This document shows, in pieces, positions 1 to 44,172 of a stretch of 64,000 bases of DNA. The translations under genes and the position numbers were made by a program. The stretch is from Escherichia coli (GTDB lineage: Bacteria; Pseudomonadota; Gammaproteobacteria; Enterobacterales; Enterobacteriaceae): the NCBI RefSeq assembly GCF_044324785.1, contig NZ_CP172127.1; one strand, 5' to 3'. Positions within the stretch are counted from its first letter, which is position 1, and each line of letters begins with the position of its first letter. The notes under the pieces were generated by a model. The model saw only the letters and a list, made by a program, of their open reading frames with translations, was not told the DNA's origin and ran no database searches.

Positions 1-177
1 ATCGGCATGCACAAAAAAATCTTTAATCGTATTTCTTGTGTCATTAATTGTTTGATGTTCAGATTGTTTTCCTCGCGGGCTGGCGCGCCTCAGAAAGTAA
101 AGCTTGTTGACAGGGGTAAACGTTCGGCAATAATTTTCTGCCGCATGCGGGTGTTGCATAAAACGTGCTACGTTCCT

Positions 178-483
178 TTATCGACAGGTCAGGTCACCGC
201 TCACCCGCCGACGAGAAAGCAACACTGACATGCTAAAGCAAAAAATAGATGAATAAGTTGAGTTGTGCATATGTAGCCTGACCGTCACAAAGTATATGGT
301 GTCTGTACCAGTAAGATGATGGCCGGACTCTTTAAAAACGAGCTGACCTGCACAATACAGGATGGACTTAGCAATGGCTGCTCCTGGCACAAAGCGGACA
401 GTGATCACCGTTCTTACGACTACTTTCTGACTTCCTTCGTGACTTGCCCTAAGCATGTTGTAGTGCGATACTTGTAATGACAT
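178..483 (-). CDS. Hypothetical protein divergent from relB (possibly ydfV-like)
   Basis: 101-aa ORF in track, divergent from relBE; size matches my recollection of K-12 YdfV but sequence identity not verifiable. Confidence 0.3.
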   Translation of the reverse strand: MSLQVSHYNMLRASHEGSQKVVVRTVITVRFVPGAAIAKSILYCAGQLVFKESGHHLTGTDTIYFVTVRLHMHNSTYSSIFCFSMSVLLSRRRVSGDLTCR

Positions 484-495
484 TTGTAATTACAA
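444..495 (+). promoter_or_regulatory. relBE promoter/operator: -35 TTGCCC (444-449), 17-nt spacer, -10 GATACT (467-472), overlapping TTGTAAT/TTGTAATTACAA operator repeats (472-495)
   Basis: Sigma70-like hexamers with 17-bp spacing directly upstream of relB RBS; 12-bp palindrome TTGTAATTACAA at 484-495. Confidence 0.5.
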
Positions 496-507
496 GAGGT
501 GTAAGAC

Positions 508-747
508 ATGGGTAGCATTAACCTGCGTATTGACGATGAACTTAAAGCGCGTTCTTACGCCGCGCTTGAAAAAATGGGTGTAACTCCTTCTGAAGCGCTT
601 CGTCTCATGCTCGAGTATATCGCTGACAATGAACGCTTGCCGTTCAAACAGACACTCCTGAGTGATGAAGATGCTGAACTTGTGGAGATAGTGAAAGAAC
701 GGCTTCGTAATCCTAAGCCAGTACGTGTGACGCTGGATGAACTCTGA
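508..747 (+). CDS. relB: RelB antitoxin
   Basis: 79-aa ORF MGSINLRIDDELKARSYA... recognised as RelB; stop overlaps relE start (ATGA). Confidence 0.95.
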   Translation: MGSINLRIDDELKARSYAALEKMGVTPSEALRLMLEYIADNERLPFKQTLLSDEDAELVEIVKERLRNPKPVRVTLDEL

Positions 748-1034
748 TGGCGTATTTTCTGGATTTTGACGAGCGGGCACTAAAGGAATGGCGAAAGCTG
801 GGCTCGACGGTACGTGAACAGTTGAAAAAGAAGCTGGTTGAAGTACTTGAGTCACCCCGGATTGAAGCAAACAAGCTCCGTGGTATGCCTGATTGTTACA
901 AGATTAAGCTCCGGTCTTCAGGCTATCGCCTTGTATACCAGGTTATAGACGAGAAAGTTGTCGTTTTCGTGATTTCTGTTGGGAAAAGAGAACGCTCGGA
1001 AGTATATAGCGAGGCGGTCAAACGCATTCTCTGA
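747..1034 (+). CDS. relE: RelE mRNA interferase toxin
   Basis: 95-aa ORF MAYFLDFDERALKEWRKL... recognised as RelE. Confidence 0.95.
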   Translation: MAYFLDFDERALKEWRKLGSTVREQLKKKLVEVLESPRIEANKLRGMPDCYKIKLRSSGYRLVYQVIDEKVVVFVISVGKRERSEVYSEAVKRIL

Positions 1035-1105
1035 ACCAAAGCATGACATCTCTGTTTCGCACCGAAGGTGACACTTCTGCTTTGCGTTGACAGGAGAAGC
1101 AGGCT

Positions 1106-1261
1106 ATGAAGCAGCAAAAGGCGATGTTAATCGCCCTGATCGTCATCTGTTTAACCGTCATAGTGACGGCACTGGTAACGAGGAAAGACCTCTGCGAGGT
1201 ACGAATCCGAACCGGCCAGACGGAGGTCGCTGTCTTCACAGCTTACGAACCTGAGGAGTAA
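1106..1261 (+). CDS. hokD: Hok-family membrane toxin (51 aa), third gene of relBE operon
   Basis: Hand-translated (below 60-aa track cutoff): MKQQKAMLIALIVICLTVIVTALVTRKDLCEVRIRTGQTEVAVFTAYEPEE; Hok family single TM + C-terminal periplasmic tail. Confidence 0.85.
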   Translation: MKQQKAMLIALIVICLTVIVTALVTRKDLCEVRIRTGQTEVAVFTAYEPEE

Positions 1262-1331
1262 GAGACCCGGCGGGGGAGAAATCCCTCGCCACCTCTGATG
1301 TGGCAGGCATCCTCAACGCACCCGCACTTAA

Positions 1332-1356
1332 CCCGCTTCGGCGGGTTTTTGTTTTT
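1332..1356 (+). terminator. Intrinsic terminator after hokD
   Basis: Hairpin CCCGC-TTCG-GCGGG followed by TTTTTGTTTTT. Confidence 0.5.
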
Positions 1357-1477
1357 ATTTTCAACGCGTTTGAAGTTCTGGACGGTGCCGGAATAGAATC
1401 AAAAATACTTAAGTAGCGCGCAGGGATAAGAGGGATGGTCCCTTAAAGGGGAGAGCTAATTATCCGGAAGGATTCTG

Positions 1478-1729
1478 ATGATGAACATCGAAGAACTGCG
1501 TAAAATTTTTTGTGAAGATGGCCTCTATGCTGTGTGCGTTGAAAATGGAAATCTTGTTAGTCATTACCGCATTATGTGTTTGCGAAAGAATGGGGCTGCG
1601 TTAATTAATTTTGTGGATGCTCGGGTCACGGACGGATTTATCTTGCGCGAAGGTGAGTTTGTCACTTCATTACAGGCATTGAAAGAGATCGGAATAAAAG
1701 CTGGCTTTTCTGCTTTTTCAGGAGAATAA
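1478..1729 (+). CDS. rem: Rem (prophage protein of unknown function)
   Basis: 83-aa ORF MMNIEELRKIFCEDGLYAV...; position between hokD and ydfU as in Qin. Confidence 0.8.
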   Translation: MMNIEELRKIFCEDGLYAVCVENGNLVSHYRIMCLRKNGAALINFVDARVTDGFILREGEFVTSLQALKEIGIKAGFSAFSGE

Positions 1730-1795
1730 ACTCATCTACAATCTTGCGCGGGGCTGAACTCCCGCTGAGTAACACCGTGCCACCGGAGAAAACCG

Positions 1796-2074
1796 ATGGC
1801 ACGCAACGCAAAATATTACAATTCTGATAATTCGCCCGTTCTTGCCTGCACGCACGGGCGGTATTCTCACGCATTCAAGTCTGAATGGTTCCAGCACCCT
1901 CCATGCACTGCAGAACAGGCCGAATGGCTGATTCATTCTTACCGCAGGCGCGGGTTCGAGGTTAAGAAAGCTCTCAGTCTCGACTATCGGCACTGGATAA
2001 TCTCTGTCAGGCTGCCTTATTCCGAACGCCCACCACGTGCGTCCCGCACTTTCCAGCAACGGATCTGGAGGTAA
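1796..2074 (+). CDS. Hypothetical small protein (unassigned)
   Basis: 92-aa ORF, non-repetitive composition; overlaps ydfU start by ~38 nt in another frame; could also reflect a 5' extension/frameshift of ydfU. Confidence 0.3.
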   Translation: MARNAKYYNSDNSPVLACTHGRYSHAFKSEWFQHPPCTAEQAEWLIHSYRRRGFEVKKALSLDYRHWIISVRLPYSERPPRASRTFQQRIWR

Positions 2075-3125
2075 CGTGCGGGTATTACTTAGACCTGTTC
2101 TGGTGCCTGAGCTTGGGCTGGTGGTCCTTAAGCCGGGCCGTGAATCCATACAGATATTTCATAATCCTCGAGTGCTGGTGGAACCGGAACCAAAAAGCAT
2201 GCGTAATCTGCCATCCGGAGTCGTTCCTGCCGTTCGCCAGCCGCTGGCGGAAGACAAAACATTGCTGCCGTTTTTTAGTAACGAACGGGTGATTCGTGCT
2301 GCTGGCGGCGTTGGCGCATTGTCCGACTGGCTATTACGTCATGTTACATCCTGCCAGTGGCCTAATGGCGATTACCATCACACTGAAACAGTCATTCACC
2401 GTTATGGTACCGGCGCAATGGTGTTGTGCTGGCACTGCGACAACCAACTGCGTGACCAGACATCGGAATCACTGGAGCTGCTTGCTCAACAAAATCTGAC
2501 AGCATGGGTGATTGACGTCATCCGTCACGCAATAAGCGGTACGCAGGAGCGGGAATTATCTTTGGCTGAATTATCCTGGTGGGCGGTCTGCAATCAGGTG
2601 GTGGATGCACTACCTGAGGCTGTATCGCGTCGTTCGCTGGGATTACCAGCGGAAAAAATCTGCTCGGTGTACCGCGAAAGCGACATCGTACCGGGAGAGC
2701 AGACCGCCACCAGCATATTGAAACAACGCACAAAAAATCTTGCACCGTTGCCTTACGCCCACCAGCAACAAAAATCACCACAGGAAAAGACGGTGGTAAG
2801 CATCACCGTTGATCCAGAGTCTCCGGAATCTTTCATGAAGCTGCCTAAACGTCGCCGCTGGGTTAAGGAGAAATACACACGTTGGGTTAAGACACAGCCG
2901 TGTGCTTGCTGCGGTATGCCAGCCGACGATCCGCATCATCTGATTGGTCACGGGCAGGGCGGAATGGGAACAAAAGCACATGATCTCTTTGTGTTGCCTT
3001 TGTGCAGAAAGCATCACAACGAGCTGCATACGGATACAGTGGCATTTGAAGATAAGTATGGCTCCCAACTGGAGCTGATATTTCGTTTTATCGATCGCGC
3101 GCTGGCAATTGGCGTACTGGCGTAA
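2037..3125 (+). CDS. ydfU: YdfU-family protein (DUF968) with C-terminal HNH-like zinc motif
   Basis: 362-aa ORF; C-terminus CACCGMPADDPHHLIGHG...CRKHHNELH resembles HNH/Zn-finger; exact start uncertain (in-frame GTG ~2073 possible). Confidence 0.75.
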   Translation: MRPALSSNGSGGNVRVLLRPVLVPELGLVVLKPGRESIQIFHNPRVLVEPEPKSMRNLPSGVVPAVRQPLAEDKTLLPFFSNERVIRAAGGVGALSDWLLRHVTSCQWPNGDYHHTETVIHRYGTGAMVLCWHCDNQLRDQTSESLELLAQQNLTAWVIDVIRHAISGTQERELSLAELSWWAVCNQVVDALPEAVSRRSLGLPAEKICSVYRESDIVPGEQTATSILKQRTKNLAPLPYAHQQQKSPQEKTVVSITVDPESPESFMKLPKRRRWVKEKYTRWVKTQPCACCGMPADDPHHLIGHGQGGMGTKAHDLFVLPLCRKHHNELHTDTVAFEDKYGSQLELIFRFIDRALAIGVLA

Positions 3126-4525: not shown

Positions 4526-4825
4526 AAAAATTCCTTAATACTGATAACTTGGCGCACTATACACACGTTCCTGAAGAAAGCTATAGTTTTTTGATGGGGT
4601 TGAAGATGGCTGGATGTCTAAAATAAACATTGCTTCATATGTTCAACTATGCGTTAATGATTGCGTCGGTTTGAAGAACAGACGATATACGAAGTAGTTT
4701 ACTAAAGCAGTTCTCATTTCAGGTGTTATTCACTTATTCCTTCTTTGAGTCTCTCCAATTAAGTACGAAGTCGTTTCTGTTATGCAAACCATTTATGCCG
4801 AAAGGCTCAAGTTAAGGAATGTAGA

Positions 4826-5041
4826 ATGTCAAATAAAATGACTGGTTTAGTAAAATGGTTTAACGCTGATAAAGGTTTCGGCTTTATTTCTCCTGTTGAT
4901 GGTAGTAAAGATGTGTTTGTGCATTTTTCTGCGATTCAGAATGATAATTATCGAACCTTATTTGAAGGTCAAAAGGTTACCTTCTCTATAGAGAGTGGTG
5001 CTAAAGGTCCTGCAGCAGCAAATGTCATCATTACTGATTAA
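4826..5041 (+). CDS. cspB: Cold-shock protein CspA family
   Basis: 71-aa [26 protein letters not shown]...; RNP1/RNP2 motifs; long AT-rich 5' leader. Confidence 0.95.
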
Positions 5042-5322
5042 AATTCATCGCTCGTCTGTATACGATAACGAAGAAGGCTGATGCCTGAGTAGAGATACGG
5101 ACAGAGTAGTGAATATTGGATCTCTTTAATAAAAAGTAAGGAGGTCCAATACATGAAACAATGGCTAGCATATTTGGCAAAATCTTAATCAGGAAAAGTA
5201 TGCTAACCATTGTGGTGAAGTGCAGGTTTGCTGCATGAATAGTTTTACAGCAGAAGCTAACTGCTGGCATGGCAAAACAAAGTGCGTAAGTGGATGACTC
5301 CCACAAAAAGCACCACAATCTC

Positions 5323-7350: not shown

Positions 7351-7713
7351 GGTAATATTAAATCGGAACATTTACATCGCGGAATGTAAAATTTAAATAA
7401 AAAGGACTCTTCCATGAGCCAAAATTCCTGAAATCTTAAGGGTAAGATAAAAGGTCTTAATCAGAATGACACGTTATTATTAATAAATAAAGCTATTCTT
7501 TCATTGCTGTGTTTTTCTTTACAAAAGTAATCCTTGCTATGGGTGGTTAATCATGCGTTAATGGTGTTCTGGTTTGTTACAAATTTATCTGAAGCAGTCA
7601 TTGTTATAATTTTATTATTTGTACCTCTTGAGATTTCCTTGTTGGTTTTTCTCTCTGATATTTTTTTTCGGACCATTCTGCCCAAGGGCTAATTTCTTCA
7701 AAAGGTAATAATT

Positions 7714-7926
7714 ATGTCTAACAAAATGACTGGTTTAGTGAAATGGTTTAACCCTGAAAAAGGTTTTGGTTTCATCACGCCGAAAGATGGCAGCAAAGAT
7801 GTGTTTGTCCATTTCTCAGCAATTCAGAGCAACGATTTCAAAACATTAACTGAGAATCAGGAAGTTGAATTTGGTATTGAGAACGGACCTAAAGGTCCTG
7901 CCGCTGTTCATGTAGTGGCGCTTTGA
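7714..7926 (+). CDS. cspI: Cold-shock protein CspA family
   Basis: 70-aa [26 protein letters not shown]...; long 5' leader. Confidence 0.95.
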
Positions 7927-8014
7927 GGTAGACAATATTACAAACCATATTCACTTTAGATGCCCGTGTTGTCATGGTTCCCAGTATAGAACATCATCTT
8001 TTGATGTTTCTGAC

Positions 8015-32405: not shown

Positions 32406-32980
32406 TGGCATTCAGAATGAGTGAACAACCACGGACCATAAAAATTTATAATCTGCTGGCCGGAACTAATGAATTTATTGGTGAAGGTGACGCATATATT
32501 CCGCCTCATACAGGTCTGCCAGCAAACAGTACCGATATTGCACCACCAGATATTCCTGCTGGCTTTGTGGCTGTTTTCAACAGTGATAAGGCATCGTGGC
32601 ATCTCGTTGAAGACCATCGGGGTAAAACGGTTTATGACGTAGCGTCAGGGGACGCGTTATTTATTTCTGAACTCGGTCCGTTACCGGAAAATGTTACCTG
32701 GTTATCGCCGGAAGGGGAGTTTCAGAAGTGGAACGGCACAGCCTGGGTGAAAGATGCAGAAGCAGAAAAACTGTTCCGGATCCGAGAGGCGGAAGAAACA
32801 AAAAACAGCCTGATGCAGGTAGCCAGTGAGCATATTGCGCCACTTCAGGATGCTGTAGATCTGGAAATCGCAACGGAGGAAGAAACCTCATTGCTGGAAG
32901 CCTGGAAAAAGTATCGGGTGTTGCTGAACCGTGTTGATACGTCAACTGCACAGGATATTGAATGGCCAGCACTGCCGTAG
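32405..32980 (+). CDS. tfa: Tail fiber assembly protein Tfa
   Basis: 191 aa [24 protein letters not shown]...; ATG overlaps stf stop (TAATG). Confidence 0.9.
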
Positions 32981-43858: not shown

Positions 43859-43975
43859 GCTCCGTTTAACATTCATTGAGAAAACTGATGCTACTGTGTC
43901 AACGATCCGTTATCAGTGCAGGAAAATGCCTGTTAGCGTAAAAGCAAAACACAAATCTATCCATGCAAGCATTCA

Positions 43976-44001
43976 CCGCCGGTTTACTGGCGGTTTTTTT
44001 T
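43976..44001 (+). terminator. Intrinsic terminator (plus strand) in dgcZ-mgtS intergenic region
   Basis: Hairpin CCGCCGG-TTTA-CTGGCGG followed by T8. Confidence 0.55.
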
Positions 44002-44007
44002 CGCCGT

Positions 44008-44049
44008 CATAAAAATCAGGCCCCTTGTACACAACTGTAACAAGGGGCC
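44008..44049 (-). terminator. Intrinsic terminator for mgtS (minus strand)
   Basis: 10-bp stem GGCCCCTTGT/ACAAGGGGCC followed on the minus strand by TGATTTTTAT. Confidence 0.55.
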
Positions 44050-44076
44050 GGTTAGGTGAGGGATTATCTCCGTTCA

Positions 44077-44172
44077 TTAGTCATCCCATTTGTGGCTGAA
44101 ATACGCGGCCAGAAAACCAGAAAATAAAATTATTCCCAGTACGGCCATAAAAACATTCATATTACCCAGCAT
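44077..44172 (-). CDS. mgtS: MgtS (YneM) 31-aa inner-membrane small protein
   Basis: Hand-translated MLGNMNVFMAVLGIILFSGFLAAYFSHKWDD; SD GGAGG upstream; below track cutoff. Confidence 0.8.
   Translation of the reverse strand: MLGNMNVFMAVLGIILFSGFLAAYFSHKWDD

What the first reader, a model, noticed from the sequence alone, without database searches (positions are those of the whole stretch)
444..1356. relBE-hokD: a type II toxin-antitoxin pair with a Hok toxin in one operon inside the prophage
RelB and RelE have overlapping stop/start, followed by a 51-aa Hok-family toxin gene and a terminator, with a promoter and palindromic operator upstream. Two mechanistically different toxins in one operon next to the late-control region may stabilise the prophage or provide abortive-infection-like protection.
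Basis: partly seen in the sequence, partly recalled or inferred. Interest (0 to 1): 0.35.

Follow-up and report, generated by a model that had tools for sequence, protein, structure and literature searches.

The report
Known relB-relE-hokD prophage toxin operon
This is the long-known relBEF (relB-relE-hokD) operon of the Qin-type lambdoid prophage of E. coli: a protein toxin-antitoxin pair followed by a Hok membrane-toxin gene that has lost its own promoter, mok frame and Sok RNA antidote, so the finding is real but ordinary.

Summary
Window 444-1356 is 100% identical to relB-relE-hokD of the E. coli K-12 Qin prophage. It holds the mapped promoter/operator (relO), relB (508-747), relE (747-1034, one-base stop/start overlap), a 71-nt spacer, hokD (1106-1261) and an intrinsic terminator (1330-1347).

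The operon was sequenced in 1985. Co-transcription of the three genes is shown in the literature, and HokD (RelF) is toxic when over-expressed.

The answer is negative. The Rfam model of the hok leader/Sok region scores 89-115 bits on four canonical hok loci used as controls. It finds nothing here, even at E<=10. Homology to a complete phage hok locus (mEp460, about 99.5% identical) starts abruptly at base 1092, the first base of the hok ribosome-binding site. Only the 3' 'fbi' element of the hok regulatory RNA survives, without its partner.

hokD is therefore a decapitated type I toxin gene carried on the RelB/RelE-autorepressed transcript. This agrees with Pedersen & Gerdes (1999).

Side observations: the same relBE-hok cassette, with other hok alleles, sits on at least 451 large plasmids. 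A 15-codon upstream ORF could couple hokD translation to relE. Neither was tested functionally. Novelty: already known.

The parts
444..449 (+). -35 hexamer TTGCCC of the relBEF promoter (inferred)
   Evidence: Read from the sequence. It lies 17 nt from the -10 hexamer. The position is consistent with relO covering -10..+17 relative to the start (PMC2812701). The generic scan (9/12 threshold) misses it because the match is 8/12.
467..472 (+). -10 hexamer GATACT of the relBEF promoter (inferred); transcription start expected near 479
   Evidence: Read from the sequence. Sort-Seq and DNA-affinity work confirm RNAP and RelBE sites on this promoter (bioRxiv 10.1101/239335).
472..495 (.). relO operator: four hexads [A/T]TGT[A/C]A forming a pseudo-palindromic half-site (472-483) and a perfect palindromic half-site (484-495)
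   Evidence: Inverted repeats found. Hexad positions. Motif and architecture from PMC2812701.
508..747 (+). relB, RHH antitoxin and autorepressor (79 aa)
   Evidence: ORF. Pfam RelB 1e-32. NCBIfam equivalog NF008412, 133 bits against a cut-off of 96. Annotated relB in MG1655.
747..1034 (+). relE, ribosome-dependent mRNA interferase toxin (95 aa); its start overlaps the relB stop by one base
   Evidence: ORF. Pfam ParE_toxin 2e-13. TIGR02385 RelE_StbE. Full-length match to PDB 4fxe/4v7j/4v7k RelE.
1035..1091 (+). relE-hokD spacer of unresolved origin. It travels with relBE on plasmids. It contains a 15-codon uORF (1043-1090, MTSLFRTEGDTSALR*).
   Evidence: Identical or near-identical next to relE on Klebsiella and Citrobacter plasmids. 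Not significantly similar to canonical hok leaders. uORF read.
1092..1096 (+). hokD Shine-Dalgarno AGGAG. Base 1092 is also the recombination joint where homology to complete hok loci begins.
   Evidence: Phage hits all start at query 649 = window 1092. Plasmid hokD hits start at window 1092. Alignments A1 and A5.
1106..1261 (+). hokD (relF), 51-aa Hok/Gef family membrane toxin
   Evidence: ORF. Pfam HOK_GEF 1.2e-23. Protein identical to the Hok of phage mEp460. Toxic on over-expression.
1244..1247 (+). TACG motif at Tyr47 codon: published TadA A-to-I editing site (Tyr->Cys), about 6% edited in hokD mRNA
   Evidence: Sequence. PMC5630033 and PMC12214031.
1311..1323 (+). orphan fbi (fold-back inhibition) element CCTCAACGCACCC; its partner tac is absent
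   Evidence: Identical in mEp460, which carries the complementary tac GGGTGCTTGAGG at its hok mRNA 5' end. In the related pSCEC128 hokD mRNA the fold predicts tac-fbi pairing. Mechanism described in PMC9841398.
1330..1356 (+). intrinsic terminator of the operon (stem 1330-1347, then a T run); inherited from the hok locus
   Evidence: Terminator scan. Identical in mEp460.

Best explanation
This is the relBEF operon (relB-relE-hokD) of a Qin-type lambdoid prophage.

Shown in the literature: a single sigma-70 promoter drives one roughly 0.87-kb transcript. RelB dimers, helped by RelE as co-repressor, bind the four-hexad operator relO that overlaps the -10 box and the start site. Transcription is therefore auto-repressed and rises when RelB is degraded or RelE is in excess (conditional cooperativity).

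Shown here: hokD is a Hok-family toxin gene whose native 5' regulatory leader has been cut off exactly at its ribosome-binding site and replaced by relBE plus a 57-nt spacer. The lost leader comprises the hok promoter, tac, ucb, the mok start, the Sok target and the sok gene.

Inferred: hokD has no RNA antitoxin and no mok coupling. Its expression depends on read-through from the RelB/RelE-repressed promoter. It is probably kept low further by weak or occluded translation initiation and by low-level Tyr47->Cys RNA editing. Under normal growth it behaves as a largely silent passenger. Under strong derepression, stable hokD-containing 3' fragments accumulate; that accumulation is shown, but whether HokD protein is then made is not known.
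For: Identity: 100% identical to K-12 over window 300-1500, with matching annotation. Family assignments come from Pfam, NCBIfam and PDB.

Regulation: operator hexads are at 472-495 and match PMC2812701. Sort-Seq and affinity data support the promoter and RelBE sites.

Co-transcription: there is a full-length relBEF mRNA, no internal inducible promoter in a delta-PrelBEF strain, and the relF part accumulates (PMC3598666). PMC5120126 also lists the genes as co-transcribed. No promoter-like site lies between 135 and 1369 on either strand.

Loss of the leader: Rfam RF01794 scores 114.9, 105.2, 88.9 and 115.3 bits on canonical hok loci (L003, L009, L010, L012). It gives no hit in the window at E<=1 or at E<=10 on 940-1140. 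The alignment with mEp460 is about 99.5% identical from 1092 to beyond 1500 and unrelated upstream. The position equivalent to the Sok promoter reads CTGTCA-17-CACCTT (6/12; -10 hexamer 2/6), against 7-8/12 in the controls. The frame that mok would occupy has a stop at 1069-1071 and no ATG or SD.

Literature agreement: hokD is 'inactivated by genomic rearrangement' and lacks canonical components. HokD is toxic when over-expressed. Its mRNA is about 6% edited.
Against: Nothing contradicts the identity.

The 'largely silent passenger' part is inference. hokD keeps a strong AGGAG with 9-nt spacing and an intact ORF. Its protein is identical to that of a functional phage. The relBE-hok arrangement recurs with at least three hok alleles on at least 451 plasmids. 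Both points could mean the third cistron is maintained by selection.

A uORF (1043-1090) could provide coupling to relE translation.

My promoter scan could not detect even the genuine Sok promoters in the controls. The absence of an antisense promoter therefore rests on positional comparison and the Rfam model, not on transcript data.
Confidence: 0.9

Rival explanations
1. hokD is a selected, functional third cistron. The relBE-hok cassette would be a chimeric addiction or abortive-infection module. RelB acts as transcriptional 'antitoxin' for Hok. hokD translation is coupled to relE translation through the 15-codon uORF: its ATG lies 8 nt after the relE stop and its stop lies 1 nt before the hokD SD. 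Translation may also be gated by a fold-back of the orphan fbi onto the SD.
For: The cassette is widespread: at least 451 large, mostly conjugative plasmids and 1161 of 5426 E. coli genomes. Three different intact hok alleles are joined to near-identical relBE and spacer. Synonymous differences exceed non-synonymous ones between alleles. The uORF is intact in all relBE-hok copies examined, and its ATG is AGG in a Salmonella relBE copy that lacks hok. In the fold of 1035-1352, both the MFE and the centroid pair 1083-1094 (which includes the SD) with the fbi. hokD-containing fragments accumulate after toxin induction. HokD is toxic.
Against: The copies are nearly identical, so conservation has no statistical power. 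hok alleles may simply be swapped in from functional loci by recombination at the conserved SD-ATG box. The fbi-SD duplex (-17.4 kcal/mol) is not better than shuffles (p=0.10), and the full-length mRNA fold pairs the fbi elsewhere. The fbi is identical in mEp460, so it has not adapted to the new partner. The uORF has no SD. IS elements sit precisely at the hok SD in some plasmid lineages, which suggests that uncoupling hok is tolerated. PADLOC gives no hit. Cited work found that chromosomal hok loci do not mediate post-segregational killing.
Confidence: 0.2
2. hokD is a pure evolutionary relic. It is transcribed as a passive 3' extension but never productively translated, and it has no function (the Pedersen & Gerdes 1999 view, as cited).
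For: All canonical activating elements (tac, ucb, mok) are missing. The literature classifies hokD as inactivated. The local fold can occlude the SD, although not better than shuffles (z=0.01).
Against: The ORF and SD are intact, and the protein is identical to that of an active phage's Hok. In canonical loci, mok coupling is needed because the leader occludes the hok SD; that leader is gone here, so the SD may be more accessible, not less (inference). The mRNA is edited at the functionally relevant Tyr codon. The joint is young (about 99.5% identity to mEp460), so lack of decay is uninformative either way.
Confidence: 0.35

Closest known systems
relBEF (relB-relE-hokD/relF) operon of the E. 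coli K-12 Qin cryptic prophage
   Same: 100% nucleotide identity over 300-1500. Same genes, operator, spacer and terminator.
   Different: Nothing within the finding's coordinates. The host prophage in this window is not the K-12 copy. It is collinear with Qin for only 10.5 kb (99.7%) and then carries a complete lambda-like morphogenesis module that K-12 Qin lacks.
Canonical hok/mok/sok type I toxin-antitoxin loci (plasmid R1 parB type; lambdoid-phage hok of mEp460/PPompW type)
   Same: Hok CDS, SD, 3' UTR with fbi, and terminator. The segment from 1092 onward is about 99.5% identical to mEp460, and the Hok protein is identical.
   Different: No hok promoter, tac, ucb, mok start, Sok target or sok gene. 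Rfam RF01794 is negative here and scores 89-115 bits in four controls. Transcription comes from a type II TA promoter instead.
relB-relE-hok cassettes on large IncHI1B/IncF plasmids of Klebsiella, Enterobacter, Citrobacter and Salmonella
   Same: Identical RelE protein (same accession, WP_000323025.1). RelB is identical in some copies and a close variant in others. The 71-nt spacer is the same or nearly so, and the joint at the hok SD is the same.
   Different: The hok allele is R1-like (52 aa) rather than hokD-like, with a different 3' UTR.
Other type II TA operons with a co-transcribed third gene (e.g. mazEFG)
   Same: A TA promoter/operator drives a downstream passenger gene with no intervening promoter or terminator (PMC5120126).
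   Different: Here the passenger is itself a toxin of another TA type.

Membership tests
RelBE type II toxin-antitoxin system | RelB/DinJ-family ribbon-helix-helix antitoxin encoded first | tested here: met
   Pfam RelB 1e-32. NCBIfam equivalog NF008412, 133 bits against a cut-off of 96.
RelBE type II toxin-antitoxin system | RelE-fold mRNA interferase toxin encoded second, tightly linked to the antitoxin gene | tested here: met
   Full-length match to E. coli RelE structures 4fxe/4v7j/4v7k. TIGR02385. One-base stop/start overlap. K52, K54, R61, R81 and Y87 are present in the translation; their catalytic role is from my own knowledge.
RelBE type II toxin-antitoxin system | Autoregulatory operator: four [A/T]TGT[A/C]A hexads overlapping the promoter | tested here: met
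   Hexads at 472-495. Motif from PMC2812701.
RelBE type II toxin-antitoxin system | Ribosome-dependent mRNA cleavage by RelE, neutralised by RelB | not testable with these tools
   Established for the identical K-12 proteins in the literature (PMC3507626 and PMC2812701, listed).
Hok/Gef toxin protein family | About 50-aa protein matching the HOK_GEF profile, with an N-terminal hydrophobic helix and conserved Cys | tested here: met
   Pfam PF01848, 82.9 bits against a cut-off of 22. Sequence MKQQKAMLIALIVICLTVIVTALVTRKDLCEV... with C15 and C30.
Hok/Gef toxin protein family | Toxic to the host when expressed | not testable with these tools
   Reported toxic (HokD control in bioRxiv 10.1101/2025.08.07.668861).
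Canonical hok/sok type I TA locus | 5' leader with tac/ucb elements and Sok target (Rfam RF01794 region) | tested here: not met
   No hit at E<=1 or E<=10. Controls score 89-115 bits. Homology to mEp460 starts only at 1092.
Canonical hok/sok type I TA locus | Overlapping mok reading frame with its own start, to which hok translation is coupled | tested here: not met
   The frame overlapping hokD is closed by TGA at 1069-1071. Its first possible start is a TTG at 1087 without an SD. Only a non-overlapping 15-codon uORF exists.
Canonical hok/sok type I TA locus | cis-encoded Sok antisense RNA gene with promoter | tested here: not met
   The positional equivalent of the Sok promoter is 6/12 with a 2/6 -10 hexamer, against 7-8/12 in the controls. 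There is no Rfam hit. Transcript data were not examined, so a non-homologous antisense RNA is not excluded.
Canonical hok/sok type I TA locus | 3' fold-back inhibition (fbi) element and terminator | tested here: met
   CCTCAACGCACCC at 1311-1323 and the terminator at 1330-1347, both identical to mEp460. The tac partner is missing.
Known anti-phage defence systems (PADLOC) | Protein match to a defence-system model | tested here: not met
   No PADLOC hit for RelB, RelE, HokD or Rem at E<=0.01.

The most novel reading that the evidence does not exclude
The relBE-hok cassette is not a decaying accident. It would be a maintained, mobile chimeric module found in Qin-type prophages and on at least 451 large plasmids, with at least three hok alleles swapped in at the same SD joint. 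In it, a type I membrane toxin has exchanged its RNA antitoxin for control by a type II antitoxin/repressor. hokD translation would be chained to relE translation through the 15-codon uORF (1043-1090). Loss of RelB would then unleash two toxins in sequence, giving stabilisation or abortive-infection-like killing.
Probability: 0.15. Interest if true: 0.45.

Novelty: already known. Interest (0 to 1): 0.1.

Why it matters
As it stands, this matters little. It re-identifies a textbook locus: the relB operon was sequenced in 1985, the relF-hok homology was reported in 1986, relBE was recognised as a TA family in 1998, and hokD was described as a rearranged hok locus in 1999.

hokD has no mok and no Sok, and the break lies exactly at its ribosome-binding site.

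If the minority reading were true, the locus would be a natural example of a type I toxin re-wired under a type II antitoxin's transcriptional control. It would be a simple system for asking how Hok toxins are restrained without an antisense RNA.

Tried and rejected
1. Spacer as a degenerate hok leader. By eye, the 1035-1091 spacer looked like the mok-start region of the R1-type leader. Local and position-constrained alignments against three canonical leaders were not significant (p=0.16-0.45, and 0.06-0.24). The leaders among themselves gave z=4.4-14.9. I left this as unresolved.

2. Adaptation of the fbi. I considered whether the C in the fbi (CAACGC) had adapted to pair with GCGTTGA upstream of the SD. 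This is rejected, because mEp460, which still has tac, carries the identical fbi.

3. An fbi-SD lock. This pairing is the best duplex partner in the whole mRNA (-17.4 kcal/mol), but p=0.10 against shuffles, and the 875-nt fold pairs the fbi elsewhere. It is not convincing.

4. Generic promoter scan for a Sok promoter. The scan failed on the positive controls: it found the hok promoters but not the Sok promoters. I replaced it with a positional hexamer comparison.

5. 'relBE-only' and 'hok-only' Klebsiella plasmid classes as evidence for independent parental modules. They turned out to be two halves of one cassette split by an IS481-family insertion at the SD.

6. Klebsiella pHSKP5 hok, which has the spacer but no relBE (L007). 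It could be either an ancestor or a derivative. It lacks an Rfam sok hit as well. Uninformative.

7. Sub-threshold Rfam isrK hit on the hok 3' UTR (25 bits against a gathering score of 50). A distant BLAST of 1262-1480 against phages returned almost only Escherichia/Stx-phage records (one Salmonella record among 93, not in the rows listed), so no Gifsy/isrK link emerged.

8. The original papers (PMC554300, PMC1167073) are not held in the library. The 'sokD' literature search returned only unrelated papers.

Full report
**What is there.** The ORF list and sequence show three genes on the + strand. relB is at 508-747. relE is at 747-1034 and shares one base between the relB TGA stop and its own ATG. 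A 51-codon ORF lies at 1106-1261, preceded by AGGAG (1092-1096).

Pfam assigns the three proteins to RelB (1e-32), ParE_toxin/RelE (2e-13) and HOK_GEF (1.2e-23), all above the curated cut-offs. NCBIfam agrees. RelE matches the solved E. coli RelE chains over its full length. A 7-bp G+C-rich hairpin at 1330-1347 followed by a T run is the only terminator-like site in 1-1800.

Upstream, an inverted repeat at 471-496 resolves into four hexads [A/T]TGT[A/C]A at 472-495. This is exactly the relO architecture defined by mutagenesis and footprinting in PMC2812701. TTGCCC (444-449) and GATACT (467-472), separated by 17 nt, fit the published position of relO at -10..+17. The generic scan misses them because the match is 8/12.

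**Identity.** Window 300-1500 is 100% identical to E. coli K-12 MG1655 and many other strains, where it is annotated ydfV/relB/relE/hokD/rem. The full stretch occurs in 1161 of 5426 complete E. coli genomes.

The window as a whole is not K-12. It is collinear with K-12 Qin for 10.5 kb at 99.7%. It then carries about 21 kb of lambda-like head and tail genes that K-12 Qin lacks. The closest genomes are IAI1-like at 99.5%.

**What is already known.** The three genes are co-transcribed. One full-length relBEF mRNA is detected with relB, relE and relF probes. Deleting PrelBEF abolishes induction of the transcript and the accumulation of its 3' part. After induction of several toxins, the relF (hokD) part accumulates as the most abundant fragment (PMC3598666; also PMC5120126).

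The promoter and RelBE operator have been dissected (PMC2812701; bioRxiv 10.1101/239335). HokD is toxic on over-expression (bioRxiv 10.1101/2025.08.07.668861). Its mRNA is edited A-to-I at the Tyr codon in a TACG motif at about 6% (PMC5630033 and PMC12214031); that motif is TAC 1244-1246 plus G1247 here.

The same papers, citing Pedersen & Gerdes 1999, state that hokD is considered inactivated by a genomic rearrangement that removed components of the canonical system. I could not open the original 1985 and 1986 papers.

Canonical hok loci need a 5' leader with tac and ucb, the overlapping mok frame, the Sok target, an antisense sok gene, and a 3' fbi element (mechanism summarised in PMC9841398). 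Rfam RF01794 models that leader up to the hok AUG.

The model scores 114.9 bits on a plasmid hokD copy (L003), 105.2 and 88.9 bits on Klebsiella and E. coli IncF hok loci (L009, L010), and 115.3 bits on phage mEp460 (L012). It finds nothing in the window at E<=1 over 1-3000. It finds nothing at E<=10 when only 940-1140 is searched. It also finds nothing in the plasmid relBE-hok cassettes.

BLAST against phages shows that every hok hit begins at exactly window 1092. The pairwise alignment with mEp460 is about 99.5% identical from 1092 through hokD, its 3' UTR, the terminator and into rem, and is unrelated upstream.

The frame that mok would use is closed by TGA at 1069-1071 and has no ATG or SD. 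The position equivalent to the Sok promoter reads CTGTCA-17-CACCTT (6/12), against 7-8/12 for the real Sok promoters in the controls. The only leader-related element left is the orphan fbi CCTCAACGCACCC (1311-1323). It is identical to mEp460's fbi, whose tac partner GGGTGCTTGAGG is absent here.

The conclusion is that hokD has no mok-like coupled frame, no Sok homologue and no promoter of its own.

**How it most likely works.** Shown: transcription comes from PrelBEF, is repressed by RelB2-RelE at relO, and ends at the hok-derived terminator. Shown: hokD-containing 3' fragments are stable.

Inferred: HokD output is limited by autorepression of the sole promoter, by inefficient initiation, and possibly by the need for Tyr47->Cys editing (by analogy with HokB). 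Whether HokD protein is ever produced from the native locus is unknown.

**Leads examined beyond the literature.**

- *Cassettes on plasmids.* The same relBE plus 71-nt spacer is fused at the same SD to an R1-like hok on Klebsiella IncHI1B plasmids, and to a third allele on a Citrobacter IncF plasmid. At least 451 plasmids carry the full cassette. This may reflect selection for the arrangement. It may equally reflect allele exchange by recombination at the conserved SD-ATG box.
- *A short upstream ORF.* A 15-codon uORF (1043-1090) starts 8 nt after the relE stop and ends 1 nt before the hokD SD. It is intact in all cassettes examined. It is a plausible substitute for mok coupling, but it is untested and has no SD.
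- *fbi-SD pairing.* In the 318-nt fold, the fbi pairs with 1083-1094, which includes the SD. The duplex is no better than shuffles (p=0.10), and the full-length fold differs.
- *Origin of the spacer.* The spacer is not demonstrably a remnant of a hok leader.
- *IS insertions.* IS elements sit exactly at the hok SD in Klebsiella (IS481 family) and Citrobacter braakii (IS21 family) plasmids.

**Verdict.** The structural interpretation is correct but already known. The functional speculation is unsupported: PADLOC gives no hit. Interest is low. The residual novel reading, a selected chimeric type II/type I cassette with uORF coupling, gets about 15%.

Noticed in passing
window 1091/1092 (joint); right side 1092 to >1500: There is a razor-sharp recombination joint at the first base of the hok Shine-Dalgarno. 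To the right, hokD, its 3' UTR, the terminator and rem are about 99.5% identical to the functional lambdoid phage mEp460, which has a complete hok/mok/sok leader. To the left there is no similarity at all. Only one phage record (PhiR42_1 from ECOR13) carries the whole relBE-hokD.
   Followed up: yes
L002:974-1840, L011:15-771 (plasmid loci); equivalent to window ~380-1110: A relB-relE-spacer-hok cassette with R1-like hok alleles (at least two, plus the hokD type) sits on at least 451 large, mostly conjugative plasmids of Klebsiella, Enterobacter, Citrobacter and Salmonella. The left edge of the shared module is at window ~380-384.
   Followed up: partly
L005:1563-2660, L015, L016, L006:1558 (equivalent to window 1092-1097): An IS481-family element is inserted precisely inside the hok SD in a Klebsiella plasmid lineage, and later rearrangements separated relBE from hok. 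In a C. braakii plasmid, homology to the cassette breaks at the same spot (window 1092), with an IS21-family element (ISSen3) annotated about 250 bp downstream. A small E. tarda plasmid also breaks there. This could reflect selection to uncouple hok, or it could be coincidence.
   Followed up: partly
window 1043-1090 (+): A 15-codon uORF (MTSLFRTEGDTSALR*) lies in the relE-hokD spacer. Its ATG is 8 nt after the relE stop and its TGA is 1 nt before the hokD AGGAG. It has no SD of its own. In a Salmonella relBE copy without hok, the ATG is AGG.
   Followed up: partly
window 107-134 (+): A near-consensus sigma-70 promoter-like site (TTGACA-16-AATAAT, 11/12) points toward relBE and runs antisense through ydfV. 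It lies outside the mobile relBE module and I know of no described transcript from it.
   Followed up: no
window 178-483 (-): The start codon of the annotated ydfV ORF lies inside the relO operator. Plasmid copies of the module end at ~380, which cuts this ORF. ydfV may therefore be a fortuitous ORF rather than a real gene.
   Followed up: partly
window 1352-1729 (+): rem, shown elsewhere to be the antirepressor of the Qin repressor DicA with an unknown inducing signal, starts 126 nt after the relBEF terminator. It has its own promoter-like site at 1370-1399. Published northerns show transcripts longer than relBEF after RelE or MqsR induction. Terminator read-through could therefore link TA activation to prophage derepression.
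   Followed up: no
window 10544-31710: The window is not K-12. After 10.5 kb collinear with Qin (99.7%), it carries a full lambda-like morphogenesis module (terminase, portal, tape measure, J, side tail fibre). This module is 97% similar to phages PhiR68_2, PhiR34_1 and Kati, so this Qin relative is far more complete than the K-12 cryptic prophage.
   Followed up: partly
window 1270-1351 (+): There is a sub-threshold Rfam isrK match (25.1 bits, gathering score 50) on the hok 3' UTR and terminator. The same match appears in mEp460. It probably reflects a generic two-hairpin-plus-terminator shape.
   Followed up: partly
window 4665-5057, 7568-7953, 32748-32946, 43870-44083 (+): Rfam hits above the gathering score: two cspA-type thermoregulator leaders (prophage csp genes), IS009 and STnc560.
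   Followed up: no
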